The notes under the pieces: model-generated
The model's database searches: none
What the model was told of the DNA's origin: nothing
Seen by the model: only the letters and a program-made list of their open reading frames with translations
Source: Gammaproteobacteria bacterium
GTDB lineage: Bacteria; Pseudomonadota; Gammaproteobacteria; Steroidobacterales; Rariloculaceae
Reading direction: 5' to 3'
DNA length: 64,000 bases
Assembly (NCBI GenBank): GCA_050485645.1
Contig: JBJHBT010000012.1
Coordinates: forward strand, 2,597 to 66,596
Shown here: piece by piece, positions 28,165-62,052 of the stretch
Layout: every line of letters starts with the position of its first letter
Position numbering within the stretch: position 1 is the stretch's first letter
Position numbers and translations under genes: made by a program

Positions 28165-29835
28165 ATGTCAGATACACTGCCTGCCGCATTGACCAGACAA
28201 CTGGCCGGACTGTCCCGGCTGCCCGCCCATCGTCAGTTCGGGCTGGTGCTGGGTCTTGCCGCCGTTGCCGCCATCGGGATCGCGCTGCTGCTGTGGGGGC
28301 TGCAGCCCCGCTACCAGACGCTGATGCACGATGCCGATGGTCGCGACGTGAGCGAAGCGATCGCCGTGCTCGATCGCAACGACATTCCGCATCGTCTCGA
28401 CCGACGCAGCGGCGCGCTGATGGTGCCCGCCAGCCTGGTCCCGCGCGCTCGTCTGAATCTCGCCAGCAGCGGTTTGCCGCGTGGTCAGGGCATGGGGTTC
28501 GAACTGCTGGAACAGGATACGCGGCTGGGTACCAGCCGCCAGCTGGAAAGCGCGCGGTTCCAGCGCGCTCTGGAAGGCGAGCTGGCACGATCCATCGTGA
28601 CGCTGGACAGCGTGGGCGCCGCCCGGGTGCATCTGGCCATGCCGCGTGAAACGGTGTTTCGCCGTGACCGCGCGCGTCCCAGTGCGTCGGTGCTGGTGAA
28701 TCTGCGTCCCGGCCGTCAGCTCGACGAGACACAGGTGGCCGGTATCGTCCACCTGGTGGCTGCCAGCGTCCCGGAACTGGAGGTGGAACAGGTGACCGTG
28801 GTCGATCAGCGCGGCCGCATGCTCAGCCAGGTGGCGGCGAGCAGTGGCGGCGCCATGCCGGCGCAGCAGCTGGAGTACACGCGGCGCATCGAAGACGCCT
28901 ATCGTCAGCGTGTCGAGGCTATTCTCGCGCCGCTGGTCGGCCCGGATGGACTGCGGGTTCAGATTACCGCCGAAGTCGATTTCACTCAGGTGGAAAGCAC
29001 GCGTGAAACCTTCGATTCCAGCAATCCGGCACTGCGCAGCGAACAGATCCGCGAGGAGGACGCCGTCGGCAGCAGCAATGGCGGGGTGCCGGGCTCGCTG
29101 ACCAATCAGCCCCCCGCGGCCGCCACGGTGGCTGCGGCGAACGGTGATCAGGACTCGGTGGCCGGTGAACCGGTTGCCGGCGCGCCAACCACCCGCAACC
29201 GTAGCAGCACACGCAACTTCGAGCTGGACAGAACCATTGATCACATCCGGCATGCACCCGCCACGCTGAAGCGTCTGTCCGTTGCCGTCGTCGTCGATCA
29301 TCGCATGGTGGCTGGCGAAGATGCGGCCGCCGCCACCCGGATGCCCTGGGATGCGGAAGGCCTTGCGCAGCTCAATGCGCTGGTGCGTGAAGCGGTGGGT
29401 CTTGACGAGCAGCGTGGCGATCGGCTCAACGTGGTCAACGCCTCGTTCCGCGATCTGGAGGTGGCCGATTCGCTGCCGGAAACACCCTTGTGGCAGATGC
29501 TCCGTCAGGAACCATGGGTGGCTGACGCGGCCCGCTATGCGCTCGCGACGCTGGGCTTTCTGATGCTGATCATGATGGTGCTGCGTCCTGCGCTGAAGTC
29601 TCTGGCGCAGCTGCCACCCGCGGCCCTGCCGGCAACCGCGGCAGCCGGCTCCCATGCCCAGGGCCTGCCGGCGCCGGCTGGCGCCGCGCTGACCCGGCAG
29701 GCGGATGCCTCGGCCAGGCAGGCGGCGGATGCGTCTGCCGAACAGGACCTTGGCAAGGCGCGCCAGCTGGCCACGCAGGATCCGCGCATGGTCGCGCAGG
29801 TGGTCCGTCAATGGATGAATGAAGATGGTCAATGA
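28165..29835 (+). CDS. fliF: Flagellar MS-ring protein FliF
   Basis: 556 aa with an N-terminal TM segment. GFELLEQDTRLGTSRQLESARFQRALEGELARSI and HLAMPRETVFRRDRARPSASVLVNL are typical FliF. Confidence 0.95.
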   Translation: MSDTLPAALTRQLAGLSRLPAHRQFGLVLGLAAVAAIGIALLLWGLQPRYQTLMHDADGRDVSEAIAVLDRNDIPHRLDRRSGALMVPASLVPRARLNLASSGLPRGQGMGFELLEQDTRLGTSRQLESARFQRALEGELARSIVTLDSVGAARVHLAMPRETVFRRDRARPSASVLVNLRPGRQLDETQVAGIVHLVAASVPELEVEQVTVVDQRGRMLSQVAASSGGAMPAQQLEYTRRIEDAYRQRVEAILAPLVGPDGLRVQITAEVDFTQVESTRETFDSSNPALRSEQIREEDAVGSSNGGVPGSLTNQPPAAATVAAANGDQDSVAGEPVAGAPTTRNRSSTRNFELDRTIDHIRHAPATLKRLSVAVVVDHRMVAGEDAAAATRMPWDAEGLAQLNALVREAVGLDEQRGDRLNVVNASFRDLEVADSLPETPLWQMLRQEPWVADAARYALATLGFLMLIMMVLRPALKSLAQLPPAALPATAAAGSHAQGLPAPAGAALTRQADASARQAADASAEQDLGKARQLATQDPRMVAQVVRQWMNEDGQ

Positions 29836-30826
29836 GGTTCTTAGCATGGATGGCGCAACGCGTGCCGCGGTGTTTCTGATGAGTCTGGGCGAGGACACTG
29901 CTTCGGCCGTGCTCAAGCACCTCGGTCCCAAGGAAGTACAGCAGATCGGGATGACCATGGCGACACTGCCATCGGTGTCGCGTACGGACATTCGCAAGGT
30001 GGTGACGGACTTCAATGCGGCTGTCGACGGCGGTGGCGGCATCAGCGTGCCGGGCGAGGAATACCTGCGCAAGGTGCTGACGCAGGCGGTTGGCGAACAG
30101 CAGGCACGCGGACTTGTGGATCGCATTCTGGCCGGTACGTCATCGGGTGGCCTGGAGTCGCTGAAGTGGATGGATGGCCGTTCGGTAGCCGACATGATCC
30201 GCAATGAGCATCCGCAGATCATCGCCATTGTGGTGTCCTATCTGAACAGCGACCGAGCGGCCGATGTGCTGACCCATCTGCCCGACGCGGTGCGCAGTGA
30301 CGTGATCATGCGTGTTGCGTCGCTCGAAAGTATCAATCCGAACGCGCTGCAGGAACTGGACAGGATTCTCGAACGGCAGTTCTCCGGCAGCACCACCAGC
30401 AACGCGGCTATCAGCGGTGGCCTCAAGCGTGCGGCCGACATACTGAACTTCATGGACAGCTCGGATGAGGAATCCATCCTCGCCACCATTCGCGGCAGTG
30501 ACGAAGTGCTCAGTACCAAGATCCAGGAGCTGATGTTCACGTTCGACAATCTGCTGGAGCTGGACGATCGCAGCATCCAGCGTGTGCTGCGTGAAGTTTC
30601 CAGCGAGCAGCTTGTGCCGGCCATGAAGGGTGCGACACCGGAAATCAGGGAGCTGCTGCTGAAGAATATGTCCAAGCGTGCCGCCGAGGCGCTGGTCGAA
30701 GATCTGGAACTGCGCGGTCCGATGCGTGTCTCGGATGTGGAAGCCGCGCAGAAGGACATTCTCGCCGTGGTGCGCAGGCTCGCGGACGAAGGCGAGATCG
30801 CGCTGGGTGGCGAGGCCTATGTCTGA
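29819..30826 (+). CDS. fliG: Flagellar motor switch protein FliG
   Basis: GATRAAVFLMSLGEDTASAVLKHLGPKEVQQIG and C-terminal MSKRAAEALVEDLELRGPMRVSDVEAAQKDIL. The start could be 29846 (GAGG RBS 8 nt upstream). Confidence 0.93.
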   Translation: MKMVNEVLSMDGATRAAVFLMSLGEDTASAVLKHLGPKEVQQIGMTMATLPSVSRTDIRKVVTDFNAAVDGGGGISVPGEEYLRKVLTQAVGEQQARGLVDRILAGTSSGGLESLKWMDGRSVADMIRNEHPQIIAIVVSYLNSDRAADVLTHLPDAVRSDVIMRVASLESINPNALQELDRILERQFSGSTTSNAAISGGLKRAADILNFMDSSDEESILATIRGSDEVLSTKIQELMFTFDNLLELDDRSIQRVLREVSSEQLVPAMKGATPEIRELLLKNMSKRAAEALVEDLELRGPMRVSDVEAAQKDILAVVRRLADEGEIALGGEAYV

Positions 30827-43851: not shown

Positions 43852-44719
43852 AGACCAGGCCGCCGGCCTGCGGCGGCTCTATGCACCTTCGCAACTGAAA
43901 GTAATCGCAGTGGCCAGCGGTAAGGGCGGCGTGGGCAAGACCACGGTGGCCATCAATCTGGCCGTGGCGCTGGCGAAGCAGGGCAGGGGAACGCTGCTCA
44001 TGGACGCCGACCTGGGGCTTGCCAACGTCGATGTGATGCTCGGTCTGAAGCCCGTCGCGACCGTGGAACAGGTGTTGTCCGGCGAGCATCGACTCGAGGA
44101 CGTCATGCTCGAAGGTCCGGCGGGGCTGAAGATTCTGCCTGGTGCTTCGGGCGTGTCGGCGCTGGCGCGTCTGGATTCCAGTGTTCAGCACGGCCTCATC
44201 AGTGCGTTTTCGACGCTGCCCTATACACCGGATGCGATGGTCATCGATGTGGCCACCGGCATCGATGCGTCCGTGCTCGGCTTCTGCGGTGCCGCGCACG
44301 AAGTCGTCGTCGTGGTCTGCGACGATGCGGCATCGATCACCGATGCCTATGCGCTGATCAAGCTGCTGTCGCGCGAGCGCGGCGTGAAGTGCTTCCGGAT
44401 TTTGTGCAACCGCGTGAATCACGCGACTCAGGGAATGGCGCTGTTCCGCCGACTGGAAAAAGTCTGTGATCGCTTTCTCAGCATCACCCTGCACCACTTC
44501 GGTTCCGTACCCGACGACCCGGCCGTGGCGTTCTCGGCGCGTATCCGGCGCTCGGTGGTGGAGTCGCTGCCCACAAGCCCTGCCGGCCGGACATTCAAGG
44601 ATCTGGCCGCCCGTGCCGATAAATGGGCAGTACCTCGGTCATCGAGTGCCAGGCCGCTGTTCTTTCTGGAGCGACTGCTGCGGAACGGTGAGGCCTCGGC
44701 CATGACGGCGGGGGGCTGA
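43838..44719 (+). CDS. flhG: MinD-type ATPase FlhG/FleN (flagellar number regulator)
   Basis: ATG 43838 overlaps the flhF end. Deviant Walker A VASGKGGVGKTTVAINLA. Follows flhF and precedes fliA. Confidence 0.9.
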   Translation: MRQPEDQAAGLRRLYAPSQLKVIAVASGKGGVGKTTVAINLAVALAKQGRGTLLMDADLGLANVDVMLGLKPVATVEQVLSGEHRLEDVMLEGPAGLKILPGASGVSALARLDSSVQHGLISAFSTLPYTPDAMVIDVATGIDASVLGFCGAAHEVVVVVCDDAASITDAYALIKLLSRERGVKCFRILCNRVNHATQGMALFRRLEKVCDRFLSITLHHFGSVPDDPAVAFSARIRRSVVESLPTSPAGRTFKDLAARADKWAVPRSSSARPLFFLERLLRNGEASAMTAGG

Positions 44720-44720
44720 C

Positions 44721-45440
44721 ATGTACGCCGCGAACGCTTCGGAAGAGTGGGGACGCCTGGTCGAGTGCCACATGGAGCTGGTGCGGCGTATCGCGTTTCA
44801 TCTGCTCGGGAGGTTGCCACCCGCGGTGCAAGTGGAGGATCTGATACAGGCCGGTGCCATCGGATTGCTGGACGCGGCGAAGCACTACGACAGCAGCCAT
44901 GGCGCGAGCTTCGAGACCTACGCCGGTCTGCGCATACGCGGCGCCATGCTCGACGAACTGCGCCGCAGCGACTGGTCGCCGCGCTCGGCCAATCGCCTTG
45001 CGCGTCAGATCAGCCAGGCCATGCAGGCGGTGGAAGCGAGCACCGGCAGCGCGGCGGGTTCGGCCGATGTGGCTGCGGCACTGGGCGTGGATGTGGAGAG
45101 TTATCACGACATGGTGCGTCGTGCGAGTCAGGCGAGGGTGTTCAGCCTGGAGGAAATCTACGGGCCGGACGATGGCGCCGACGTGCTCGGCGGCGGTGAT
45201 GACCCGGCCGGCGAAGTGCTGCGCGGTGACTTCGGCGAAGCACTGCAGGCGGCGATTGCCGAACTGCCGGAACGGGAGCAGCTGGTGATGTCGCTGTACT
45301 ACGACGATGAGCTGACGCTGAAGGAAATCGGCGCCGTGCTCGGCGTAACCGAATCGCGTGTGTGCCAGCTGCACGGGCAGGCACTGATCAGGCTGCGATC
45401 GAAGCTGAGTGAATGGGAATACGACGAGATATCGGTCTGA
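44721..45440 (+). CDS. fliA: Flagellar sigma factor FliA (sigma-28)
   Basis: Region 2 (DLIQAGAIGLLDAAKHYD) and region 4 HTH (LTLKEIGAVLGVTESRVCQLHGQALIRLR). 239 aa. Confidence 0.95.
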   Translation: MYAANASEEWGRLVECHMELVRRIAFHLLGRLPPAVQVEDLIQAGAIGLLDAAKHYDSSHGASFETYAGLRIRGAMLDELRRSDWSPRSANRLARQISQAMQAVEASTGSAAGSADVAAALGVDVESYHDMVRRASQARVFSLEEIYGPDDGADVLGGGDDPAGEVLRGDFGEALQAAIAELPEREQLVMSLYYDDELTLKEIGAVLGVTESRVCQLHGQALIRLRSKLSEWEYDEISV

Positions 45441-45464
45441 GGACCAACCTGCGGAACGGGATTT

Positions 45465-46205
45465 ATGGACGTACTTAGCCTGCTTGGAGTCGTACTCGCG
45501 ATCGTCGCCATCCTTGGTGGCAGCGTGCTCAAGGGCAGCGGAGTGGCCGCGCTGTGGAACGGAGCCGCGTTCCTGATCGTTGTCGTGGGCACATTCGCTT
45601 CGGTGTTCATCCAGGTGCGCATGCAGGTGTTCACGCACGGACTTCGCATTCTGCCGTGGATATTCAAGTCGCCGACCGCTGATGCGGAGCGGCTGATCGA
45701 GCAGGTGGTGGGCTGGAGTCAGGTGGCGCGCAAGGACGGCCTGCTGGGTCTGGAGAGCATCGCCGAACAGGAAACCGATCAGTTCGTGCGCAAGGGTCTG
45801 CAGCTGCTGGTGGACGGGGCCGAGCCGGAAACGATCCGCCATGTCATGGATGTGGAAATCGAAAGCCGCGAGCACTTCGATCAGCAGGGCGCGAAGGTGT
45901 TCGAGAGCCTGGGCATCTATGCGCCGACGCTGGGCATCATCGGCGCGGTAATGGGCCTGATCAGCGTCATGCAGAACCTCGCCGAGCCGGAAAAGCTGGG
46001 TCCGGGTATCGCCACCGCATTCGTGGCGACAATCTACGGCATTGCATCGGCCAATCTGCTGTTTCTGCCCATCGGCAACAAGCTCAAGGGGCTGATACAG
46101 GCAACCGTGCAGCAGCGTGAACTCGTTCTGGAAGGCCTGGTCAGCATTGCCCGCGGTGACAATCCGCGCGGTATCGAAACCAAGCTGCGCGGCTTTCTGG
46201 TCTGA
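45465..46205 (+). CDS. motA: Flagellar stator protein MotA (MotC/PomA-like size)
   Basis: 246 aa with 4 TM segments. GIYAPTLGIIGAVMGLI and TAFVATIYGIASANLLFLPIG are MotA/ExbB-family motifs. Confidence 0.9.
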   Translation: MDVLSLLGVVLAIVAILGGSVLKGSGVAALWNGAAFLIVVVGTFASVFIQVRMQVFTHGLRILPWIFKSPTADAERLIEQVVGWSQVARKDGLLGLESIAEQETDQFVRKGLQLLVDGAEPETIRHVMDVEIESREHFDQQGAKVFESLGIYAPTLGIIGAVMGLISVMQNLAEPEKLGPGIATAFVATIYGIASANLLFLPIGNKLKGLIQATVQQRELVLEGLVSIARGDNPRGIETKLRGFLV

Positions 46206-46215
46206 AGTCTTCGCG

Positions 46216-47169
46216 ATGGCACGGCGCAAGCGGCATGAAGATCACGTGAACCACGAGGCGTGGGCCATTCCCTACGGCGACCTGATCACGCTGCTGCTGG
46301 CCTTCTTCGTCGTGATGTATGCGCTGTCATCGGTCAACGAGGGCAAGTACAGAATCCTCTCCGACTCCCTGATAGCCGCGTTCCGTTCCCAGCCGAAGTC
46401 GCTGGAGCCGATCCAGGTGGGTCAGCCATCGCGCTCCGCATCGGTGCCGGATGTTCGTCAGCAGCGCACGCTGGTGCCTCTGGAAATCGACAGCTACCTC
46501 GCCACACAGATGGCACGGATGCCCGAAGGCGGGCGCCACGAACTGGCCATGATGCGTACCGCGGGCCTCACGCCGGACGAAATCGATGCGGCGATGGCAC
46601 TGATCGAGGACATCACCACGCAGATCGCCGACGAACTGTCCGAGTTGATCGACGCCGACATGGTGCGGCTGCGGCCGGAACGTTTCTGGCTGGAAGTGGA
46701 AATCAACACCAGCGTGCTGTTTGCGACGGCCAGCGCGGAACTGGCCGCGGATGCGGAGCCGATCGTGCGGCGGCTGGGCGACATCCTCGCGCACACGCCC
46801 ACACGCGTGCAGGTGGAGGGCCACACGGATTCGCTGCCGATCAGTACGGCAACCTATCCGTCGAACTGGGAGCTGTCCGCAGGCCGGGCCGCCACGGTCG
46901 TCAGGCTGTTTGCCGGTGGTGGCGTGAATCCCGCGCAGCTGTCGGCGGTCGGTTTCTCCGAGTTTCGCCCGGTGGACGACAACGAATCCGCTGCCGGGCG
47001 CGCGCGCAACCGGCGGGTTGTGATCGTGATCATGGCCGGGCGTGATGATCACGCGGGAAAAGTCTGGACCGAAGCTGAAATGGGCGAACGCGGATGGACA
47101 ATGGGTGAACCCTCCGCTTCTTTTACACTCGATGGAGCTGGCTATGGAATTCAATATCACGACCACTGA
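46216..47169 (+). CDS. motB: Flagellar stator protein MotB (OmpA-like peptidoglycan-binding domain)
   Basis: MARRKRHEDHVNHEAWAIPYGDLITLLLAFFVVMYALS includes the conserved plug/TM Asp. OmpA-like VEGHTDSLPI...SNWELSAGRAATVVRLF...NRRVVIVI. Confidence 0.92.
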   Translation: MARRKRHEDHVNHEAWAIPYGDLITLLLAFFVVMYALSSVNEGKYRILSDSLIAAFRSQPKSLEPIQVGQPSRSASVPDVRQQRTLVPLEIDSYLATQMARMPEGGRHELAMMRTAGLTPDEIDAAMALIEDITTQIADELSELIDADMVRLRPERFWLEVEINTSVLFATASAELAADAEPIVRRLGDILAHTPTRVQVEGHTDSLPISTATYPSNWELSAGRAATVVRLFAGGGVNPAQLSAVGFSEFRPVDDNESAAGRARNRRVVIVIMAGRDDHAGKVWTEAEMGERGWTMGEPSASFTLDGAGYGIQYHDH

Positions 47170-51319: not shown

Positions 51320-51346
51320 TTATCGGCCGATTCAGCGCGGCCTTTA
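51320..51346 (-). promoter_or_regulatory. Sigma-28 (FliA) promoter for the HDOD / REC-GGDEF-EAL / HDOD operon
   Basis: Minus strand reads TAAAG-GCCGCGCTGAATCG-GCCGATAA (plus strand TTATCGGC-N15-TTTA). The -10 matches 8/8, the -35 is exact and the spacing is consensus. About 47 nt upstream of ATG 51273. Confidence 0.8.
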
Positions 51347-51382
51347 GCGCGGCCTTTAGCGCGGCCTTTAGCGCGGCCCTTA
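51335..51382. repeat. 12-bp tandem repeat x4 (GCGCGGCCTTTA), each unit carrying a TAAAG element on the minus strand
   Basis: Units at 51335-46, 51347-58, 51359-70 and 51371-82 (last unit CCCTTA). The promoter-proximal unit supplies the -35 of the sigma-28 promoter. Confidence 0.9.
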
Positions 51383-51460
51383 GCGCGACATGGCGCCGCG
51401 GACCAGGTTCAGCGCGAACGAAGCTGCGGACGCCGGTTCGCCGCGCGCCGGGTGGATCAT

Positions 51461-53329: not shown

Positions 53330-54817
53330 GTGACAGGGCTCACAGCCGTGGCCACTTGCCTGCGTCACAATCACCAAGTTCAGGATGGTTCTCTTCTGGT
53401 TAAGGTCGCAGTGGTGTTGCAGGACGACGATTTTCTCTCGACGGCCGGTTCGGATACCGGCAACAGGACTCGTGCCAGTGCGAGCCTGCGGTTCATGGAG
53501 CACTATCTGCGAGGAGACGGTGGGCGAGGAGACGGTGGGCGAGAAGACGGTGCGCGAGGCGAGGGCGGCAACCGTCTGACCGGGCTCCTCCTCGGTCAGC
53601 TGGACGCGTTCAATCGCATCAGCACCACGTTCGGCCACGATGCCTCCAGCGCCTTCTGCGCACGCTATACCACCGGACTTCGAGACCTGCTGCCCGAAGG
53701 CACGCCGGTAATACGCCTGTCGGAACGCCGGTTCGCGATCCTGCTGCGACTGGACAGTGTCTCGGCGGTCGTCGATGTGGCCGCCGGCCTGGCGGATCGC
53801 AGTCAGCCATACATGGAACACGGCGACGATCGCTTCATCGTCGACCTGACCCTCGGTATCGCCGTGTACCCGACGCATGCCGACGATGCGGCCACTCTGT
53901 TCAGGCGTGCCGAACTGGCGCTCAAGGAGGCCCGCGACCAGGAACTGACGTTCGACATGTATCAGCCGGAGTCGACACAGCAGCACGCCGCGCTGTGGAA
54001 GCTGGAAAGCGACCTGGACAGCGCGGTGCGCGAGGGACAGCTGGAGGTTTTCTATCAGCCGCAGCTGGAGCTCGGGCGTCCCCATGTCGGGGGACTCGAG
54101 GCGCTGGTGAGATGGCGACGCAGGTCCGGCCAGTTCGTGCCGCCGGAGGAATTCATTCCGATCGCCGAACGCGGTGGCAGCATCGTGCCGATCACCTGGT
54201 TCGTGTTCGACTCGGTGGCCGCGCACGCGGCCTCCTGGGCGGCCCTGCCGAAACCGTTAAATGTGGCGGTGAACCTTTCACCGTCGGTGCTCGGCCATCG
54301 CGAGCTGGATTCGCGGCTCGACCGGCTGCGGCGGACGCTGGCAGGCCACGGGATCGGTCTGTCGGTGGAGATTACCGAAGACAGCCTGGTGCAGAACTCG
54401 GAAGCCACTCCGGCGAGCCTGAAACGACTGCGCGATGCCGGGATCGGACTTGCGATCGACGATTTCGGCAAGGGTTACTCGTCACTTACCTACCTCAAAC
54501 AGATACCGGCGACAGAGATCAAGATCGACCGACACTTCGTGTCGTCGATCGCGAAAGACGACACGGACAGGGAGATCGTGCGCAGTGTGGTCGATCTGGC
54601 ACATGCATTGAACATGCGCGTCGTTGCCGAGGGCGTGGACAGCAGTGACAACCTTGAAGTCGTCACCCGTCTGGGGTGTGAGGTGGCACAGGGGTTCTTC
54701 ATCGCCCGTCCGATGCGGGCGGATCTCGTGTACGACTGGATCAACAGCCACGCGGTGGCGACCAGGAGCCTCGAAGCGAAAACGCGCGCCGCGGCTGCGT
54801 TGCGTCCCGACACCTAG
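53330..54817 (+). CDS. Degenerate-GGDEF / EAL domain protein (probable c-di-GMP phosphodiesterase)
   Basis: The GGDEF-like domain lacks the motif (SERRFAILL sits where GG[DE]EF is expected). The EAL domain is intact (LEALVRW, DDFGKGYSSLTYLK, EIKIDRHF). Start is uncertain (GTG 53330, GTG 53411 with AAGG RBS, or ATG 53495). Confidence 0.85.
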   Translation: MTGLTAVATCLRHNHQVQDGSLLVKVAVVLQDDDFLSTAGSDTGNRTRASASLRFMEHYLRGDGGRGDGGREDGARGEGGNRLTGLLLGQLDAFNRISTTFGHDASSAFCARYTTGLRDLLPEGTPVIRLSERRFAILLRLDSVSAVVDVAAGLADRSQPYMEHGDDRFIVDLTLGIAVYPTHADDAATLFRRAELALKEARDQELTFDMYQPESTQQHAALWKLESDLDSAVREGQLEVFYQPQLELGRPHVGGLEALVRWRRRSGQFVPPEEFIPIAERGGSIVPITWFVFDSVAAHAASWAALPKPLNVAVNLSPSVLGHRELDSRLDRLRRTLAGHGIGLSVEITEDSLVQNSEATPASLKRLRDAGIGLAIDDFGKGYSSLTYLKQIPATEIKIDRHFVSSIAKDDTDREIVRSVVDLAHALNMRVVAEGVDSSDNLEVVTRLGCEVAQGFFIARPMRADLVYDWINSHAVATRSLEAKTRAAAALRPDT

Positions 54818-56818: not shown

Positions 56819-58156
56819 ATGAGGTTCGTCGTTGATCTGATCTGGCTGCTGTTCGGGCTGCTGGCTTCGCCTTGGCTGCTGTACAGGGCGGTCGTGACTG
56901 GCGGGTGGCGGCGTCTGCCGGCGAGGCTGGGATCGGAGGTTTCCAGCCCCGCGCCTGCCGGTATCTGGCTGCACGGTGCGTCCGTGGGTGAGGTGACGCT
57001 GCTCAGGCCGCTGGTGGCACGCTTGGAGCGTGAGCTGCCGCATCTGCCGCTGACCATTTCGGCGGTGACCTCCACCGGCGCCGCCGCCGCCCACAAGCTC
57101 TGGCCGCAACACCACGTCGTGCTGCTGCCGCTCGATCTGTCGTTTATCGTGCGCCGCGTGATGGGTCGCATGGCGCCGCGCATGATCGTGATCGTCGAGG
57201 CGGATTTCTGGCCCAACTTTCTGCTGGCCGCCGACGCACGCCGCATACCGGTTGTGGTGGTGAATGCGCGCGTATCGGAGCGATCGGCGCGCCGGCTGCT
57301 GCGCACGCGCGTCGTTCCCGGCGTTCTGCGTCGCACGGCCATGATCGCGGCGCAGAACGAGACGTTCCGGCAGCGGTTCGTGTCGCTTGGCATCCCGGTG
57401 CGGCAGACCCTGGTGACCGGCAACATGAAGTACGATCAGGTTGCCACTTCCGCCGAACCCGGGCGCGACGGACTGCGAATGTCGCTGGGCTACGCGCGCG
57501 ACGAACTGATCCTGATCGGTGGCAGTCTGCATGCCGGCGAGGACGAAGTCGTGCTGGAAGCCTTTCGGAATCTGCGTCGCGTGCAGCCGGTCAGACTGAT
57601 TCTGGTGCCGCGATATCCCGTGGAGGCCGCCGCGATCGCGGCGCGTATCGCGGCGACCGGTGACAGCGTCACGCTCAGAAGCCAGCCCGGCGGCGCGGCG
57701 CCGCCGGATGTCCTGGTGGTGGACACGCTGGGTGAGCTGGCCGGCCTGTATGCGCTGGCGGACATCGCGTTTGTCGGCGGCAGTCTGTATTTCCGCGGCG
57801 GCAACAAGGGCGGACACAACCTGATGGAACCGGCGGTTGCCGGCCTGCCGGTGCTGTTCGGGCCCCACCACTACAGTTTTCGCGATACCGTGGCGGATCT
57901 GCTCGCGGCCGGAGGCGGCATGCAGGTGCATGACAGCGTGGAACTGACGCAGGCGCTGGTCGCGCTGGGTACCGATCCGGAGCGGCGCAGGGCAGTCGGA
58001 GCGGCGGCCCGTCGGGTTGTGACTGACGGTCAGGGCGCCACGCAGCGCAACTTCGAGCTGCTTCGCGAACTGCTGGTGGAGCCGGGCGATGGCTTGCGAC
58101 CGCAGGGCTTTGACATCACAATGCTTCGCACGACACCCGGCACGGATACAGGATGA
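56819..58156 (+). CDS. 3-deoxy-D-manno-octulosonic acid (Kdo) transferase family protein, divergent paralog
   Basis: ATG 56819. GT30 N-domain pattern IWLHGASVGEV...ISAVTSTG...VEADFWPNFLL...VVVVNARVSERS and C-domain GGSL...GGHNLMEPAVAGLPVLFGPHHYSFRD. The track ORF start at 56456 is an upstream extension. Confidence 0.8.
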   Translation: MRFVVDLIWLLFGLLASPWLLYRAVVTGGWRRLPARLGSEVSSPAPAGIWLHGASVGEVTLLRPLVARLERELPHLPLTISAVTSTGAAAAHKLWPQHHVVLLPLDLSFIVRRVMGRMAPRMIVIVEADFWPNFLLAADARRIPVVVVNARVSERSARRLLRTRVVPGVLRRTAMIAAQNETFRQRFVSLGIPVRQTLVTGNMKYDQVATSAEPGRDGLRMSLGYARDELILIGGSLHAGEDEVVLEAFRNLRRVQPVRLILVPRYPVEAAAIAARIAATGDSVTLRSQPGGAAPPDVLVVDTLGELAGLYALADIAFVGGSLYFRGGNKGGHNLMEPAVAGLPVLFGPHHYSFRDTVADLLAAGGGMQVHDSVELTQALVALGTDPERRRAVGAAARRVVTDGQGATQRNFELLRELLVEPGDGLRPQGFDITMLRTTPGTDTG

Positions 58157-58989
58157 CCAAGAAACACGTACAGGTTGGCGATATCGACTGCGGTTCGGAT
58201 CAGCTTTTCCTGATTTCCGGGCCCTGCGTGATCGAAGCCGAGTCGATGATGATGAACACGGCGGAGCGGCTCAAGAAGATCGCCGAATCGCTGGGTGTTC
58301 CGCTGGTGTTCAAGTCGTCCTTTTCCAAGGACAACCGCAGCTCGCTGGACTACTACCAGGGGCCGGGCCTCGACGAAGGGCTGAAAATCCTGGAGAAGGT
58401 CAAACGCGAGTTCGACCTGCCGGTACTCACCGACATCCACTATCCGAACCAGGCCGCGCCCGCGGCTGACGTGGTCGACATACTGCAGATTCCCGCCTAT
58501 CTGTGCATGCAGACCGAACTTGTGGTCGCCGCAGCGAAGACCGGCAAGGTGGTGAATATCAAGCATGGCCAGTTCATCGCACCGGACAACATGGCCAAAC
58601 CGGTGAAGAAGATCGAGGCGGTGGGCAATGAGCAGATCATCGTCACCGAACGCGGCTATACCTTTGGTTACAACGATCTGATCGTGGATCCGCGTGCCTT
58701 TCTGCTGTTGAACCAGATCGGTTATCCGGTGGTGTTCGACATCACGCATACCATTCGCAAGTACGGCATCCCCAGCAAGGATCCGCGTGGCGGCACTCGT
58801 GAGTTTCTGGCGGTACTGGCGCGCGCCGGTGTCGCGGCCGGCATCGACGGCATCTTCATCGAAGCGCATCCCAACCCGCCGGAAGCACTTTGCGACGCCG
58901 CGAGTCAGTACTACCTCGATCAGCTGGCCGAATTCGTCAAGCCGCTGCTCGAAATACACAATCTGGTCCGATCTCAGCAGAAGATCTGA
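58153..58989 (+). CDS. kdsA: 3-deoxy-8-phosphooctulonate (Kdo8P) synthase KdsA, Cys-type (metal-dependent-like) variant
   Basis: ATGA overlap with the upstream stop. Collinear with E. coli KdsA as I recall it (FKSSFSKDNRSS, LQIPAYLCMQT, FDITHT, FIEAHPNP). Cys25 in GPCVIE sits where E. coli has Asn (GMNVLE). Confidence 0.92.
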   Translation: MTKKHVQVGDIDCGSDQLFLISGPCVIEAESMMMNTAERLKKIAESLGVPLVFKSSFSKDNRSSLDYYQGPGLDEGLKILEKVKREFDLPVLTDIHYPNQAAPAADVVDILQIPAYLCMQTELVVAAAKTGKVVNIKHGQFIAPDNMAKPVKKIEAVGNEQIIVTERGYTFGYNDLIVDPRAFLLLNQIGYPVVFDITHTIRKYGIPSKDPRGGTREFLAVLARAGVAAGIDGIFIEAHPNPPEALCDAASQYYLDQLAEFVKPLLEIHNLVRSQQKI

Positions 58990-59015: not shown

Positions 59016-60053
59016 ATGGAACTGTATCTGGACTCCGTCGATTTCAAGGAGATCGAAACCGCGTTCGAATTCGGCTTTCTGAAAGGGCTGACAACCACGC
59101 CGACATTCATGCATCGTCACGGCATCACGGATGTCGACGGTGCCATCGTGAAGCTGTCCGGCATGGTGCCTGAGCTACAGGTTGAGGCGCTTGGCGATAC
59201 GCCCGACGAGATTCTTCGTGAAGCCGAACGTATTCTGGCGCTTCCCGGCCTCCAGCAGGCACCGGTATTCAAGGTGCCGATTTCCAACGCCGGTGTGAAA
59301 GCCTGTGATCGGCTGACGAGGAAGGGTTATCGGGTCAACGTGCACCTGATCTATACGTTGAACCAGGCCTACATGGCGATGGCGGCGGGCGCTGCGTTCG
59401 TGTGTCCGCTGGCGGGGCGCCTCCAGGACCAGGGCCATGACGCGATCAAGCTGTTTGAGCAATGCGTCGATGTGATCGTTACCCATGGCTATGATGCCAA
59501 GGTCATGTTCTCGTCCGTGCGTCATGCCGAGCATGTGCGTCAGGCGCTGTTGTGCGGCGTGCATGTGTGCACCGTGCCTTTCGGCGTCATCAATAATCTA
59601 TGCGAGAACTCGTTGACGACCGTGGGTACCGCCCAGTTCCGCGAGCACACGCAGCTGATGACGCTCAAGGTCCGCGACCTGATGGGCAGCGTCAATCCGG
59701 TATGTGAAGCGTCCGAGACGCTGAGCTCGGCGATGGTGAAAATGACGGAATCCAGGCTCGGTATCGTCAATCTCGTCGACGGCGAAGGCCGCATGGCGGG
59801 TGTGTTCACCGATGGCGATCTGCGCCGCAAACTGCAGGAAGGCGGACGCCGGATTCTCGACAAGACGCTTGCGGAGATCGGCTTCTCGCCGAGCCCGGTC
59901 AGCATACCGAAAGACAGCCTGCTCAACGAAGCGGTGAAACTGTTCAAGGAGTTCAAGGTCGACAGCATCGTGGTTCTGGACGGCGAACGTCCGGCCGGCG
60001 TGCTCGACATCCAGGACCTGGTGAAGCTGGGCCTGCTCGGCCCGCAGCGCTGA
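59016..60053 (+). CDS. Fusion protein: fructose-6-phosphate-aldolase/TalC-type TIM barrel plus KdsD/KpsF-type CBS pair
   Basis: The N-terminal 215 aa resemble E. coli FSA (MELYLDS.D, GLTTTP, Schiff-base Lys context VFKVPIS..G.KA). The C-terminal 125 aa is a CBS pair with GVFTDGDLRRKL, nearly identical to the KdsD motif GIFTDGDLRR. No SIS domain. Confidence 0.75.
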   Translation: MELYLDSVDFKEIETAFEFGFLKGLTTTPTFMHRHGITDVDGAIVKLSGMVPELQVEALGDTPDEILREAERILALPGLQQAPVFKVPISNAGVKACDRLTRKGYRVNVHLIYTLNQAYMAMAAGAAFVCPLAGRLQDQGHDAIKLFEQCVDVIVTHGYDAKVMFSSVRHAEHVRQALLCGVHVCTVPFGVINNLCENSLTTVGTAQFREHTQLMTLKVRDLMGSVNPVCEASETLSSAMVKMTESRLGIVNLVDGEGRMAGVFTDGDLRRKLQEGGRRILDKTLAEIGFSPSPVSIPKDSLLNEAVKLFKEFKVDSIVVLDGERPAGVLDIQDLVKLGLLGPQR

Positions 60054-60057
60054 TCTC

Positions 60058-60741
60058 ATGTTTGAGCCGGCAGAGCTGCAGGCTCGCTACACGGCATCCG
60101 GCGCTTCGTTCCTGACGCCCGCCACGACGCTGGCGGCGCGGGTCGCGTCGCTGCGCGGCATCGTGTTCGACTGGGACGGCGTATTCAATGCCGGCGTCAA
60201 GGGCGAACACATGCCCAGTCCGTTCAGCGAGCCCGATTCCATGGGAACCAACCTGTTGCGGTACGGGCTGTGGCTGCGCGAACAGCGGCTGCCCGTCGCG
60301 GCAATCGTGTCCGGCGCGGCCAACCCCGACGCGGTGGCGTTCGCCAGACGCGAGCATTTTCAGGCGGTGTATCCCGGCGTGCGTAACAAGGCGGACGCGG
60401 TGGCGGCCCTGTGCGCCGTCCATGGCGTGGACGCGTCACAGCTGGCGGTGGTGTTCGATGATGTCAATGATCTGCCGATGGCCGCCGAATGTGGCATGCG
60501 CTTTCTGGTGCGTCGCGCTAGCAGTCCACTGCTTGCGGAGTTCGCGGCGCGCGAGGGACTGTGCGACTACGTTACAGCCTGCGAGGGGGGGCGCCATGCA
60601 GTGCGTGAAGTCACGGAACTGCTGCTTGGTCTCACCGGCCGGTTCGAGCAGGTGATCCGCTCCCGGATAGCCTCCGATGATGCCTATGTGCGCTACTTCA
60701 ATGCGCGCCAGGCACTTGAAACCCGGCTTGAAAGCCACTGA
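60058..60741 (+). CDS. HAD-superfamily phosphatase, KdsC (Kdo8P phosphatase)-like with extended termini
   Basis: DxDGV motif (IVFDWDGVFNAG), RNKADAV...VVFDDVNDLPMAAECGM and GGRHAVREVTELLLG parallel the KdsC motifs. 227 aa versus about 180 for typical KdsC. Confidence 0.65.
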   Translation: MFEPAELQARYTASGASFLTPATTLAARVASLRGIVFDWDGVFNAGVKGEHMPSPFSEPDSMGTNLLRYGLWLREQRLPVAAIVSGAANPDAVAFARREHFQAVYPGVRNKADAVAALCAVHGVDASQLAVVFDDVNDLPMAAECGMRFLVRRASSPLLAEFAAREGLCDYVTACEGGRHAVREVTELLLGLTGRFEQVIRSRIASDDAYVRYFNARQALETRLESH

Positions 60742-60762: not shown

Positions 60763-62052
60763 GTGACTGTCTGGGGTGTCGTCGCTTATCTGCTGCTGCC
60801 ATACGCGATACTCAAGCTGTTGTGGCGCGGCTTTCGTTATCGTGCCTACTGGTATCGCTGGCCGGAGCGCTTCGGCTTCATCGACCCGCCTTCCGACGAA
60901 CACGTGATCTGGATTCATGCGGTTTCGGTGGGCGAGGTGCGTTCCTGCGTGGTGCTCGTTGACGCATTCGCGGAGCGCTTTCCCGATCACCGCATTCTCA
61001 TCACGACGATGACCCCGACCGGATCGGCGCAGGTCCGCGAACTGTTTGCCGATCGGGTCAGCCATGCCTATGTGCCATACGACGTGCCGTTTGCGGTGGA
61101 GCGTTTTCTGAATCGGGCCCGGCCCGCGTTCGCGGTGATAGCCGAGACGGAGTTCTGGCCCAATATATTCCGTGCCTGCAATCACCGCGACATTCCGCTG
61201 CTGCTGGTCAATGTGCGGATATCCCAGACCTCGCTGCGCGGCTACTCGCTGGTACCGCGCACGTTTCGCGCCATGCTGGGTCACGCCGACATGATCTGCG
61301 CTCAGACACGCACCGACGCTTATCGGCTGCGCACGCTCGGTGCACCGGAGGGTCGCATCCACATCACGGGTAATCTGAAGTTCGACGTGGAAACGCCGGC
61401 TCGCCTGCTGGAGGAATCAGCCGCCCTGCGCGCCTCATGGGGGCGCGATCGTCCGGTGTTCATCGCCGCGAGTACGCATCGCGGTGAGGAGAGAATTCTG
61501 CTCAGGGCCTTCGGCGAGTTGCGGCAGCACTACCCGTCCATGCTGCTCGTGGTGGTGCCAAGGCACCCGGAGCGTTTCGAACCGGTGGCCAGACAGAGCG
61601 AACGGGCCGGATACCAGATCGCCCTGCGCAGTGAAACGCGCGGCAGTCTGCCAGAAGGCACCGACGTGCTGGTGGGCGACACCATGGGAGAGCTTCAGCG
61701 TCTGTATGCGGCATCCGATGTGGCATTCATCGGCGGCAGTCTGGTGCGCAAGGGTGGACAGAATCTGCTCGAGGCCTGTGCCGTTGGCGTGCCGGCGCTG
61801 TTCGGCCCGCATATGTTTCATTTCGAGGAGATCAGCGTCATGGCGCTGGAACGTGGCGCCGGACGTCAGGTGCACGGGGTTGCGGATCTGGTCGAGGCGG
61901 TGTCGGACTACCTTCAGAATCCGCCGGCGCGTCAGGCGGCCGGTGCTGCCGGCCGCCGGCTGGTGGCCGACAACCGCGGCGCGCTGGACAAGACCATGAA
62001 GCTGATGACCGATACGCTCAAGGAACGCGGTCGCGTCAGTCGCGCCACTTGA
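60763..62052 (+). CDS. waaA: Kdo transferase WaaA (KdtA)
   Basis: GTG start. LLLPYAILKLLWRGFRYRAYWYRWPERFG, IWIHAVSVGEV, ITTMTPTG, ETEFWPN and GGSLVRKGGQNLLEACAVGVPALFGPHMFHFEE are canonical WaaA. Confidence 0.9.
   Translation: MTVWGVVAYLLLPYAILKLLWRGFRYRAYWYRWPERFGFIDPPSDEHVIWIHAVSVGEVRSCVVLVDAFAERFPDHRILITTMTPTGSAQVRELFADRVSHAYVPYDVPFAVERFLNRARPAFAVIAETEFWPNIFRACNHRDIPLLLVNVRISQTSLRGYSLVPRTFRAMLGHADMICAQTRTDAYRLRTLGAPEGRIHITGNLKFDVETPARLLEESAALRASWGRDRPVFIAASTHRGEERILLRAFGELRQHYPSMLLVVVPRHPERFEPVARQSERAGYQIALRSETRGSLPEGTDVLVGDTMGELQRLYAASDVAFIGGSLVRKGGQNLLEACAVGVPALFGPHMFHFEEISVMALERGAGRQVHGVADLVEAVSDYLQNPPARQAAGAAGRRLVADNRGALDKTMKLMTDTLKERGRVSRAT

What the first reader, a model, noticed from the sequence alone, without database searches (positions are those of the whole stretch)
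59016..60053. Aldolase-for-SIS domain swap: FSA/TalC-type aldolase fused to a KdsD-type CBS pair inside a Kdo operon
The canonical arabinose-5-phosphate isomerase KdsD/KpsF is a SIS domain plus a CBS pair. This 345-aa ORF keeps a CBS pair very close to KdsD (GVFTDGDLRRKL versus E. coli GIFTDGDLRR, from memory). Its N-terminal catalytic domain is a class-I transaldolase-family barrel resembling fructose-6-phosphate aldolase (MELYLDS, GLTTTP, Lys in VFKVPIS). It sits between kdsA and a kdsC-like phosphatase, exactly where an A5P-supplying enzyme would be expected, and no SIS isomerase is in the operon.

Established knowledge, as I recall it: FSA-type aldolases accept glycolaldehyde as donor, and glycolaldehyde plus glyceraldehyde-3-phosphate gives D-arabinose-5-phosphate.

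Inference: the fusion may supply A5P, or a related pentose or hexose phosphate, to KdsA by an aldol route rather than by isomerisation of ribulose-5-phosphate. That would be a non-canonical entry into Kdo-type sugar synthesis.
Basis: partly seen in the sequence, partly recalled or inferred. Interest (0 to 1): 0.7.

Follow-up and report, generated by a model that had tools for sequence, protein, structure and literature searches.

The report
Transaldolase-fold stand-in for KdsD isomerase
A gene in a lipopolysaccharide (Kdo sugar) operon fuses a remodelled transaldolase-type barrel to the regulatory tail of the usual arabinose-5-phosphate isomerase, and its relatives sit next to the Kdo synthase gene in many bacterial groups, so it probably supplies that enzyme's sugar-phosphate substrate by a route nobody has described.

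Summary
ORF 59016-60053 (+) encodes 345 aa: a transaldolase/FSA barrel (residues 1-215) plus a CBS pair whose best matches are the C-terminal halves of KdsD, KpsF and GutQ. It lies in a tight waaA-like / kdsA / fusion / kdsC-like / waaA operon. No SIS isomerase was found in the 64 kb window.

It is neither an FSA nor an ordinary transaldolase. It belongs to a distinct clade I call "HCL". This clade keeps the Schiff-base Lys86, Asp6, Glu57 and the phosphate site. Three first-shell residues are swapped as a block: Thr110 to His, Ser130 to Cys, Phe132 to Leu. The window's subclade also has Asn28 to Thr.

Of 134 HCL loci with at least 1 kb of upstream DNA, 127 have a kdsA homologue within 1.6 kb. 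These come from at least six phylum-level labels and from phage-like contigs. Several loci are complete kdsB-kdsA-HCL-kdsC cassettes, and none of the 160 loci encodes a SIS domain. Paralogues that lost the Lys are not next to kdsA.

Best reading (about 0.6): a non-homologous replacement of KdsD that supplies arabinose-5-phosphate. The chemistry is open: glycolaldehyde + G3P aldol, or ribose-5-phosphate 2-epimerisation. I found no literature on it. Whether these genomes lack kdsD could not be tested.

The parts
56834..58156 (+). waaA-like Kdo transferase paralogue 1. The ORF opens at 56456; homology starts near 56834. Its stop overlaps the kdsA start by 4 nt.
   Evidence: Pfam Glycos_transf_N 3.4e-50. 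NCBIfam lipid IV(A) Kdo transferase models give 302 bits, below the 438 cutoff. It is 36-37% identical to waaA2 and is conserved upstream of kdsA in gammaproteobacterial loci.
58153..58989 (+). kdsA (Kdo8P synthase), metal-type (Cys at E. coli position 26). It belongs to an unusual subtype with KDNRS instead of KANRS and Met instead of Arg120.
   Evidence: NCBIfam PRK05198 355 bits (cutoff 242) and TIGR01362 341.5 bits (cutoff 314). The motif differences are shared by 63-67 of about 70 family loci and by distant loci L081, L082, L085 and L086. The PDB Kdo8P synthases shown in alignment have KANRS and Arg.
59016..60053 (+). The finding: a 345-aa fusion of an HCL-clade transaldolase-fold barrel with a KdsD-type CBS pair.
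   Evidence: AlphaFold model: mean pLDDT 85.7. Foldseek best hits are small transaldolases 1vpx, 3r8r, 1wx0 and 3s0c, with target-normalised TM 0.80-0.87.
59016..59660 (+). Catalytic barrel (residues 1-215). Key codons: Asp6 59031-59033, Thr28 59097-59099, Glu57 59184-59186, Lys86 59271-59273, His110 59343-59345, Cys130 59403-59405, Leu132 59409-59411, Arg135 59418-59420, Ser166/Ser167 59511-59516, Arg169 59520-59522.
   Evidence: These residues are invariant in 64 of 64 family members from loci carrying at least six phylum-level labels. The positional equivalence to B. subtilis, T. maritima and T. thermophilus transaldolases is shown in the HMMER alignments. Clade-specific positions are listed.
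59658..60038 (+). CBS pair (residues 215-341) of the KdsD/KpsF/GutQ type, with the invariant ribose-binding-type motif G-V-F-T-D-G-D-L-R-R.
   Evidence: F264 to R271 are invariant in alignment A1.
60058..60741 (+). KdsC-family HAD phosphatase, divergent, with an N-terminal extension. It starts 4 nt after the fusion's stop.
   Evidence: NCBIfam KdsC PRK09484 2.4e-13, 50 bits against a cutoff of 208. It is 31% identical to E. coli KdsC across the whole protein, including the DxDGV motif. It lies downstream of the fusion in 48 of 70 genome loci.
60763..62052 (+). waaA (lipid IV(A) Kdo transferase), the canonical-scoring paralogue.
   Evidence: NCBIfam PRK05749.1-4 476.5 bits against a cutoff of 438.

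Best explanation
The gene encodes a neofunctionalised enzyme of the small-transaldolase fold (the 'HCL clade') that works with Kdo8P synthase (KdsA) in CMP-Kdo synthesis. Most probably it supplies KdsA's aldose-phosphate substrate, D-arabinose 5-phosphate, taking the place of the SIS-type isomerase KdsD. It has kept KdsD's CBS regulatory pair.

Proposed mechanism (inferred, not shown):
- Lys86 forms a Schiff base with C1 of a 5-phospho-aldopentose, or with glycolaldehyde.
- Arg135/Ser167/Arg169 hold the phosphate four carbons away, as they do for fructose 6-phosphate in transaldolases.
- The pocket that holds the donor's C1 hydroxymethyl group in transaldolase and FSA is refilled (Ser130 to Cys, Ala166 to Ser). 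This would make the site aldose-specific.
- His110 replaces the Thr-bound catalytic water next to Glu57 and would act as the new acid/base.

The only reaction with biochemical precedent is glycolaldehyde + glyceraldehyde 3-phosphate to A5P. I put that specific reaction at about 0.3. The broader claim, that the enzyme makes KdsA's substrate in place of KdsD, I put at about 0.6. The CBS pair is inferred to confer nucleotide or CMP-Kdo-type feedback control, as presumed for KdsD.
For: Shown:
1. Architecture and KdsD-type CBS pair.
2. Tight operon waaA-like/kdsA/fusion/kdsC-like/waaA. The genes overlap by 4 nt or are separated by 26, 4 and 21 nt, and internal promoter- or terminator-like sites do not exceed chance.
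3. 127 of 134 HCL loci with at least 1 kb of upstream DNA carry a kdsA homologue within 1.6 kb. By record titles, the loci span Gammaproteobacteria, Desulfobacterales, Bacteroidota, Nitrospirota, Leptospiraceae, Aminicenantes and Chloroflexota, plus unassigned metagenome contigs.
4. Complete cassettes have the HCL gene where kdsD would be: L128 and L131 (kdsB-kdsA-HCL-kdsC), L135 (kdsC-HCL-kdsA-kdsB), L125 (kdsC-kdsA-HCL-kdsB), L068. KdsB-like/KdsA-like/HCL trios also occur inside polysaccharide clusters.
5. No SIS domain was found in any of the 160 loci or in the window.
6. The active-site signature D-[N/T]-E-K-[N/S]-H-C-L-R-S-R is bimodally separate from canonical small transaldolases (DNEKNTSFRSR) and from FSA (DNQKLTAYRSK). 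It is invariant in 64 of 64 close members. With the signature columns masked, all 53 canonical sequences fall in one clade that holds no HCL member.
7. Natural control: paralogues that lost Lys86/Asp6 are not next to kdsA.
8. Solo HCL genes pair mostly with canonical KANRS/Arg120 KdsA, which points to A5P as the shared metabolite.

From the literature:
- E. coli FsaA interconverts A5P and glycolaldehyde + G3P (PMC6900487; PMC9947464).
- A5P forms a covalent adduct with a transaldolase (Light & Anderson 2014, as cited in PMC7895386).
Against: - No enzyme assay exists and no cultured host was identified.
In many bacteria kdsD is not linked to kdsA anyway, so its absence from within 8-10 kb either side is weak evidence on its own.
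- No glycolaldehyde-producing gene is conserved nearby, and glycolaldehyde is not a central metabolite.
- FSA's proton-relay Tyr is Leu here.
- The linked KdsA has changed acceptor-site residues (KANRS to KDNRS; Arg120, a ligand of the A5P phosphate, to Met; new Arg182 and Arg205). This could mean the acceptor is not A5P.
Confidence: 0.6

Rival explanations
1. Same role (A5P supply) but different chemistry. The enzyme would take a central pentose phosphate rather than glycolaldehyde. One version is a Schiff-base-assisted ribose-5-phosphate 2-epimerase: C1 iminium, deprotonation at C2, reprotonation on the other face by the newly gained His110/Cys130 pair. Another version is a Ru5P to A5P isomerase using Glu57/His110, possibly with a metal held by Asp6/Glu57/His110/Cys130.
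For: - The module is portable and self-contained: two to four genes inside polysaccharide clusters and on phage-like contigs, never with a glycolaldehyde-forming gene.
- The clade-defining changes add two ionisable residues at once, His and Cys. This is the pattern of two-base epimerases and sugar-phosphate isomerases (my own knowledge).
- TalB F178Y, mutated at the position equivalent to Leu132, yields both A5P and R5P from glycolaldehyde + G3P (Yang 2019, as cited in PMC9947464). So this barrel can handle both C2 epimers.
Against: - No transaldolase-family member is known to act as an epimerase or isomerase.
- Asp6 and Glu57, the residues that make and break the C-C bond, remain invariant.
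- A Schiff base at C2 of Ru5P would lead to an Amadori-type dead end (chemical reasoning).
Confidence: 0.25
2. The pair makes a Kdo-like sugar that is not Kdo. The HCL enzyme would produce a different aldose phosphate, and the variant KdsA (KDNRS/Met120) would condense it with PEP. The product would go into a core or O-antigen modification, transferred by the divergent waaA-like paralogue, while a canonical kdsD/kdsA pair exists elsewhere in the genome.
For: - The linked KdsA departs from the KANRS motif and lacks the Arg that binds the A5P phosphate, in 102 CBS-fused loci.
- The operon has its own divergent waaA-like gene, which scores below all NCBIfam cutoffs, and a divergent KdsC-like phosphatase.
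- Distant members sit among methyltransferases, radical-SAM enzymes and glycosyltransferases in polysaccharide clusters.
Against: - The KdsA still passes two Kdo8P-synthase equivalog cutoffs.
- It keeps Lys55, Lys60, Asn62, Arg63, Ser64, Asp95, Arg168, His202, Glu239 and Asp250 (alignment).
- Solo HCL genes pair with fully canonical KdsA.
- A canonical-scoring waaA and, in many loci, kdsB, lpxL-like, heptosyltransferase and Kdo-kinase-like genes are adjacent. This fits the housekeeping inner-core pathway.
Confidence: 0.12
3. An ordinary transaldolase or FSA of the pentose-phosphate pathway, or an A5P-cleaving 'safety valve'. It would be co-transcribed with Kdo genes only to balance pentose-phosphate pools, with KdsD encoded elsewhere.
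For: - Databases annotate it as transaldolase, TalC/MipB or K00616.
- The catalytic Lys/Asp/Glu triad and the phosphate site are intact.
- A5P inhibits transaldolase and RpiA (PMC7895386), so controlling the pool could matter.
Against: - All NCBIfam transaldolase and FSA equivalogs are missed by wide margins.
- Four first-shell residues that are invariant in real small transaldolases are replaced, including the Ser that binds the donor C1-OH.
- The linkage to kdsA holds across phyla and on phage-like contigs, and it disappears when the catalytic Lys is lost.
- The CBS pair is of the KdsD type rather than any transaldolase-associated type.
Confidence: 0.05
4. A non-catalytic sensor or regulatory subunit. 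It would bind A5P or Kdo8P in the old active site and a nucleotide in the CBS pair, and control KdsA.
For: - Lys-less relatives exist, so the scaffold tolerates loss of catalysis.
- The co-variation between the CBS fusion and the KdsA subtype could reflect a protein-protein interface.
Against: - Lys86, Asp6, Glu57, His110, Cys130 and Leu132 are invariant in every kdsA-linked member examined.
- The Lys-less forms are exactly the ones that are not linked to kdsA.
Confidence: 0.03

Closest known systems
Small (about 215-aa, decameric) transaldolases, e.g. B. subtilis 3r8r, T. maritima 1vpx, T. thermophilus 1wx0, T. acidophilum 3s0c
   Same: Closest sequences and structures: E = 2e-32 to 9e-25, Foldseek target-normalised TM 0.80-0.87. 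They share the TIM barrel, the Schiff-base Lys, Asp6, Glu57, Asn108 and the phosphate site Arg135/Ser167/Arg169.
   Different: Thr110 to His, Ser130 to Cys, Phe132 to Leu and Ala166 to Ser in the whole clade, plus Asn28 to Thr in the window's subclade. It is fused to a CBS pair. It is linked to kdsA rather than to pentose-phosphate pathway genes.
Fructose-6-phosphate aldolase FsaA/FsaB (TalC/MipB) of E. coli
   Same: Same fold family and Schiff-base chemistry. FSA is the one characterised enzyme that interconverts A5P and glycolaldehyde + G3P (PMC6900487; PMC9947464). Like FSA, the HCL clade lacks the Ser that binds the donor C1-OH.
   Different: Only 25% identity, and E about 1e-11 against FSA structures. 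It has Glu and Leu where FSA has its diagnostic Gln59 and Tyr131, and His where FSA has Thr109. It scores far below the FSA equivalog cutoff (131.9 against 245.95). FSA has no CBS pair and no known link to Kdo genes.
Arabinose-5-phosphate isomerases KdsD / GutQ / KpsF (SIS + CBS pair)
   Same: The C-terminal CBS pair aligns end to end with KdsD 202-328, including GxFTDGDLRR. The position in the pathway, next to kdsA, kdsC and kdsB, is the same. The proposed product, A5P, is the same.
   Different: There is no SIS domain at all. The catalytic domain has an unrelated fold and, presumably, an unrelated mechanism (Schiff base rather than enediol). So this would be a functional analogue, not a family member.
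Sulfofructose transaldolase (BmSF-TAL, 8bc3/8c4i)
   Same: Another small-transaldolase-fold enzyme recruited to a specialised sugar pathway. It is detected at 1e-17.
   Different: It acts on different substrates, in sulfoquinovose catabolism. It has no CBS pair and no link to Kdo genes. I did not check its residues at the signature positions.

Membership tests
Pfam PF00923 TAL_FSA (transaldolase/FSA superfamily) | Profile match above the gathering score, with the TIM-barrel fold | tested here: met
   110.5 bits against a cutoff of 27. The AlphaFold model has mean pLDDT 85.7, and its Foldseek top hits are all small transaldolases.
Fructose-6-phosphate aldolase (TIGR00875 fsa_talC_mipB equivalog) | Score at or above the curated equivalog cutoff | tested here: not met
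   131.9 bits against a cutoff of 245.95. NF009299 gives 81.9 against 214.
Fructose-6-phosphate aldolase | Gln59 and Tyr131, the residues that distinguish the aldolase from transaldolases (role recalled from the literature; the PDB variants 4xz9 E60Q/F132Y and TalB F178Y are consistent with it) | tested here: not met
   Glu57 and Leu132 in 64 of 64 members.
Transaldolase (small subfamily; equivalogs TIGR02134, NF003026 and others) | First-shell set Asn28/Thr110/Ser130/Phe132 (T. acidophilum numbering) and the equivalog score | tested here: not met
   The window has Thr28/His110/Cys130/Leu132. All 53 canonical representatives have T/S/F at positions 110/130/132, and all 146 HCL members have H/C/L. 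All transaldolase equivalogs score far below their cutoffs.
Class I (Schiff-base) aldolase chemistry | Catalytic Lys on strand beta-4, with Asp6 and Glu57 | tested here: met
   Lys86, Asp6 and Glu57 are invariant. Actual Schiff-base formation cannot be tested with these tools.
KdsD/KpsF/GutQ arabinose-5-phosphate isomerase | N-terminal SIS catalytic domain | tested here: not met
   KdsD aligns only from residue 202 onward. TIGR00393 matches only profile positions 154-267.
KdsD/KpsF/GutQ arabinose-5-phosphate isomerase | C-terminal CBS pair of the KdsD type | tested here: met
   Among CBS-containing NCBIfam models the best are kpsF, KdsD and GutQ. The best PDB CBS hits are API CBS pairs 4o9k, 3fna and 3k2v.
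KdsD/KpsF/GutQ arabinose-5-phosphate isomerase | Catalyses Ru5P to A5P and rescues a kdsD gutQ mutant | not testable with these tools
   This needs an enzyme assay or a complementation experiment.
Kdo8P synthase (the neighbouring kdsA) | Equivalog score, the KANRS acceptor motif and Arg120 (E. coli numbering) | tested here: inconclusive
   The score is met: 355 bits against 242, and 341.5 against 314. The motif is KDNRS and position 120 is Met. The PDB enzymes shown in alignment have KANRS and Arg.
KdsC Kdo8P phosphatase (the neighbouring HAD gene) | Equivalog score and the HAD DxDGV nucleophile motif | tested here: inconclusive
   50 bits against a cutoff of 208. It is nevertheless 31% identical over the full length of E. 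coli KdsC, with FDWDGV aligned to LDVDGV.

The most novel reading that the evidence does not exclude
The HCL clade is a new enzyme activity on the transaldolase scaffold. It would make arabinose 5-phosphate directly from a central metabolite, for example by Schiff-base-assisted 2-epimerisation of ribose 5-phosphate, or by an aldol reaction with a bound or activated glycolaldehyde unit. That would make the SIS-type isomerase KdsD dispensable in thousands of uncultured Gram-negative lineages and in mobile, even virus-borne, Kdo cassettes. It would have co-evolved with a KdsA subtype (KDNRS/Met120), perhaps as a channelling complex controlled through the inherited CBS pair.
Probability: 0.25. Interest if true: 0.9.

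Novelty: new variant of a known kind. Interest (0 to 1): 0.74.

Why it matters
The four-step CMP-Kdo pathway (KdsD, KdsA, KdsC, KdsB) is treated as universal in bacteria that make lipopolysaccharide, and KdsD is pursued as an antibiotic target.

A widespread replacement of its first enzyme by an unrelated fold would have several consequences:
- It would revise the textbook pathway.
- It would explain genomes whose Kdo module looks incomplete.
- It would correct thousands of 'transaldolase' annotations (K00616), which distort reconstructions of the pentose-phosphate pathway in metagenomes.
- It would give the FSA/transaldolase family its first natural role in making an aldose phosphate.

Synthetic-biology groups building glycolaldehyde and ethylene-glycol assimilation pathways have said they want a better 'A5P aldolase' (PMC9947464). 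A natural enzyme dedicated to A5P could provide one.

The co-varying KdsA subtype breaks a motif (KANRS) that, by my recollection of the literature, is regarded as invariant.

Tried and rejected
- Exact look-up of the window protein in public assemblies found nothing on record, so the source genome could not be identified.
- Testing whether genomes with the fusion lack kdsD was not possible. The single genome-contig scan went to the family itself. Homologue searches list only the best 120 hits, so a KdsD from a particular MAG cannot be pulled out. The 'same longest-contig length' fingerprint idea was abandoned for that reason.
- Literature: eight full-text searches found no paper on a transaldolase/FSA-CBS fusion, on a non-SIS source of A5P, or on the KDNRS KdsA subtype. 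The 'KANRS' search returned only kanamycin-resistance noise.
- The lead that A5P isomerase is depleted in Calvin-cycle genomes (PMC7895386) was checked. It concerns copy number in a subtree dominated by Burkholderiales, not absence, so I dropped it.
- The cyanophage TalC lead failed. The GenBank phage collection holds only hits of 41% identity or less, annotated as transaldolase or TalC (I did not check their signature residues), and no HCL-clade member close to the query. The cyanophage paper that has kdsA, kdsB and talC does not link them.
The two cluster look-ups returned only MAG or metagenome names.
- Recent horizontal transfer judged by base composition is rejected: GC3 is 0.77, like the neighbouring genes.
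- The longer TTG start at 58890 is rejected: it overlaps kdsA, and homologues start at MELYLDS.
- Transfer of a glycolaldehyde unit from central aldose phosphates (G6P, M6P, E4P, R5P) was considered and rejected on stereochemical grounds. None has the D-threo C2/C3 configuration that a single active-site geometry would need. This is reasoning, not a computation.
- Action on Kdo8P itself was rejected. The phosphate would lie six carbons from the Schiff-base carbon, whereas the retained site fits four.
Full report
**1. The observation**

The ORF at 59016-60053 (+) is real and encodes 345 residues.
- Pfam finds a TAL_FSA barrel over residues 3-212 (1.3e-31) and two CBS motifs (1.9e-15).
- The C-terminal 130 residues match the C-termini of the KpsF/GutQ, KdsD and GutQ models best among all NCBIfam families.
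- In the PDB they match isolated CBS pairs of arabinose-5-phosphate isomerases best: 4o9k, 3fna, 3k2v.
- BLASTP aligns residues 215-341 with E. coli KdsD 202-328, that is, from the SIS/CBS boundary to the end. Identity is 29% and includes GVFTDGDLRR against GIFTDGDLRR.
- An AlphaFold model (mean pLDDT 85.7) matches small transaldolases with target-normalised TM 0.80-0.87.

The gene sits in a compact operon:
- waaA-like, 56834-58156
- kdsA, 58153-58989
- the fusion, 59016-60053
- a KdsC-family HAD, 60058-60741
- waaA, 60763-62052

The genes overlap by 4 nt or are 26, 4 and 21 nt apart. Internal promoter- or terminator-like sites do not exceed chance. Codon-position GC matches the neighbours. 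No SIS domain and no KdsB occur anywhere in the 64 kb. The rest of the window is mainly a flagellar cluster and c-di-GMP signalling genes.

**2. It is not an FSA and not an ordinary transaldolase**

The barrel is closer to the small decameric transaldolases (3r8r 2e-32, 1vpx, 1wx0, 3s0c) than to E. coli FSA (about 1e-11). It misses every curated transaldolase and FSA equivalog by a wide margin; the FSA model gives 131.9 bits against 245.95.

I aligned 64 full-length family members from loci whose record titles span at least six phylum-level groups. The active-site set is invariant: Asp6, Thr26, Thr28, Glu57, Lys86, Asn108, His110, Cys130, Leu132, Arg135, Ser166, Ser167, Arg169.

Canonical small transaldolases have Asn28, Thr110, Ser130, Phe132 and Ala166. 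FSA has Gln59, Thr109, Ala129, Tyr131 and Ala165.

A search of 1.84 billion cluster representatives, followed by a tabulation over 226 sequences, shows a clean bimodal split:

| Group | Signature | Count |
|---|---|---|
| Canonical small transaldolase | DNEKNTSFRSR | 42 solo, 1 with CBS |
| HCL clade | D[N/T]EK[N/S]HCLRSR | about 100 with CBS, nearly 40 solo |

- Thr110 to His, Ser130 to Cys and Phe132 to Leu always occur together.
- Ala166 to Ser and His/Gln55 co-vary with them.
- Asn28 to Thr marks the window's subclade.
- With the signature columns masked, a neighbour-joining tree still puts all 53 canonical sequences in one clade that contains no HCL member.

**3. The link to kdsA is close to universal and follows the catalytic signature**

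- In 75 genome loci, kdsA lies directly upstream of the fusion in nearly all. A kdsC-like gene follows in most, and waaA, kdsB, lpxL-like, heptosyltransferase and Kdo-kinase-like genes are common nearby.
- Distant HCL members (about 35% identical) were examined through their contigs. All have a KdsA-like gene immediately upstream, usually preceded by a KdsB-like cytidylyltransferase, inside polysaccharide clusters. One contig is from Chloroflexota.
- Solo HCL genes without CBS lie one small ORF away from kdsA on phage-like contigs. Those contigs carry DNA polymerase B, chaperonins and 7-deazaguanine-type genes, or NeuB, sialyltransferase and ribonucleotide reductase.
- A metagenome scan with a profile of distant members added 80 loci.
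- Overall, 127 of 134 loci with at least 1 kb of upstream DNA have a kdsA homologue within 1.6 kb. None of the 160 loci encodes a SIS domain. All 114 KdsD hits fall on the CBS half of the fusion itself.
- Four loci are complete four-gene CMP-Kdo cassettes with the HCL gene where kdsD would be: L128, L131, L135 and L125. L068 holds the same four genes but less compactly: kdsB lies directly upstream of the fusion, and kdsC-like and kdsA follow about 2 kb downstream.
- A natural control exists. Bacteroidota paralogues that lost Lys86 and Asp6 keep the CBS pair, but sit next to a phosphodiesterase and an M61 peptidase, not kdsA.

**4. A second, unexpected co-variation**

The KdsA next to CBS-fused HCL genes is a distinct subtype.
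- KANRS becomes KDNRS.
- Arg120 becomes Met. By my recollection this is Aquifex Arg106, a ligand of the A5P phosphate.
- Phe117 becomes Tyr, new Arg residues appear at 182 and 205, and Gly251, Pro252 and Ala254 change to Ala, Ala and Gln.
- PEP-binding, metal-binding and other catalytic residues are intact.

The PDB Kdo8P synthases shown in alignment have KANRS and Arg. Across loci, CBS-fused HCL pairs with KDNR/Met in 102 cases and with the canonical form in about three. Solo HCL pairs with canonical KANR/Arg in 9-10 cases and with KDNR/Met in four.

Because fully canonical KdsA also pairs with HCL, A5P remains the most economical shared metabolite. The variant subtype may reflect a changed binding mode or a physical complex with the fusion. 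It also keeps alive the rival reading that a Kdo-like sugar is made.

**5. How it most likely works**

Shown:
- the fold;
- an intact Schiff-base triad and phosphate site;
- a remodelled donor pocket;
- a KdsD-derived CBS pair;
- pathway-level linkage to kdsA, kdsB, kdsC and waaA, with no SIS domain nearby.

Inferred: the enzyme supplies KdsA's acceptor, A5P.

The geometry fits. A5P bound as a C1 aldimine places its phosphate four carbons from the Lys, exactly as F6P does when bound at C2. Two literature facts are consistent with this: E. coli FsaA turns over A5P well (KM 0.65 mM, kcat 3.6 per s; PMC6900487), and A5P forms a covalent adduct with a transaldolase (Light & Anderson 2014, cited in PMC7895386).

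The residues lining the pocket for the donor's C1 substituent are Ser/Ala in transaldolase and Ala/Ala in FSA. Their roles are recalled from the FSA engineering literature. Here they are Cys130 and Ser166. This should disfavour dihydroxyacetone-type ketose donors and favour an aldehyde bound at C1.

Two chemistries then compete.
- **(i) Aldol addition of glycolaldehyde to G3P.** It has precedent in vitro and in engineered cells. But it needs a glycolaldehyde supply that no neighbourhood encodes.
- **(ii) Conversion of a central pentose phosphate.** The leading version is 2-epimerisation of R5P through the C1 iminium/enamine, with the newly gained His110 and Cys130 as the two bases. This would explain why the module is self-sufficient in phage-like and O-antigen contexts. 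It is hinted at by TalB F178Y producing both A5P and R5P. It has no precedent in this family.

I put the general role at about 0.6. Within it, roughly half goes to route (i) and most of the remainder to route (ii).

**6. Comparison, novelty and limits**

The protein is a member of the TAL_FSA superfamily. It fails the defining features of FSA, of transaldolases and of KdsD (no SIS domain). If the proposed role is right, it works like KdsD without being one.

No paper in the searchable library describes the fusion, the HCL signature or the KDNRS KdsA subtype. Public annotations call it 'transaldolase', 'TalC/MipB aldolase' or 'CBS domain-containing protein'.

The main gap is that I could not determine whether genomes with the cassette lack a SIS-type kdsD or a second kdsA. 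That test, together with simple coupled assays and complementation of an E. coli kdsD gutQ mutant, would decide the matter.

Noticed in passing
window 58153-58989; also L081, L082, L085, L086 and about 100 other loci: The kdsA linked to CBS-fused HCL genes is a distinct subtype. It has KDNRS instead of the KANRS motif, Met instead of Arg120, Tyr117, and new Arg182 and Arg205. Solo HCL genes mostly pair with canonical KdsA.
   Followed up: partly
L168 7001-8005, L169 7001-8008, L170 7001-8005 (Bacteroidota metagenome contigs): These transaldolase-CBS paralogues have lost the Schiff-base Lys (Lys to Arg) and Asp6 but keep the CBS pair. They are not next to kdsA. In all three loci they follow a Phosphodiest gene and a Peptidase_M61 gene. 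They are likely pseudoenzymes of unknown role.
   Followed up: partly
L083/L084 5888-7636; L085 5896-7696: kdsA plus a solo HCL gene occur on phage-like contigs. One type carries DNA polymerase B, Cpn10/Cpn60, GTP cyclohydrolase I, PTPS and a radical-SAM gene. The other carries NeuB, two cytidylyltransferases, a GT29 sialyltransferase-like gene and ribonucleotide reductase. This suggests virus-borne Kdo or ulosonic-acid cassettes.
   Followed up: partly
window 56834-58156 and 60763-62052: Two waaA paralogues, 36-37% identical to each other, flank the kdsA/fusion/HAD core. The upstream one scores below every NCBIfam Kdo-transferase cutoff. This two-waaA arrangement is conserved in the gammaproteobacterial relatives.
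   Followed up: no
window 60058-60741: The KdsC-like HAD phosphatase is far below the KdsC equivalog cutoff (50 bits against 208). It has an N-terminal extension of about 25-30 residues relative to E. coli KdsC. It co-occurs with the fusion in 48 of 70 genome loci, while some other cassettes carry a more typical KdsC (44% identical to E. coli KdsC).
   Followed up: partly
window 18541-20178: A TPR plus sulfotransferase (Sulfotransfer_3) protein is encoded between a flgL-like flagellin-family gene and the flagellin gene, inside the flagellar cluster. It may be a flagellin-modification enzyme.
   Followed up: no
window 28168-30228 (-) and 44595-46229 (-): Two long ORFs with coding-like codon-position GC (686 and 544 aa) have no Pfam match at 1e-5.
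   Followed up: no
window 51334-51387 and 53509-53559: A 12-bp tandem repeat (4.5 copies, 97% matches) lies in the gap between the HDOD and DUF1015 genes. A 15-bp repeat (3.4 copies) encodes a Gly/Arg/Asp-rich stretch near the N-terminus of the GGDEF-EAL protein.
   Followed up: no
L001-L074 (genome loci): The fusion and its kdsA are unusually similar across phylum labels: the fusion is 57-70% and KdsA 65-80% identical to the window's proteins in loci labelled Desulfobacterales, Bacteroidota, Nitrospirota or Aminicenantes. By comparison, the window's KdsA is roughly 45-50% identical to E. coli KdsA. This points to strong constraint, to horizontal spread of the module as a unit, or to both.
   Followed up: no
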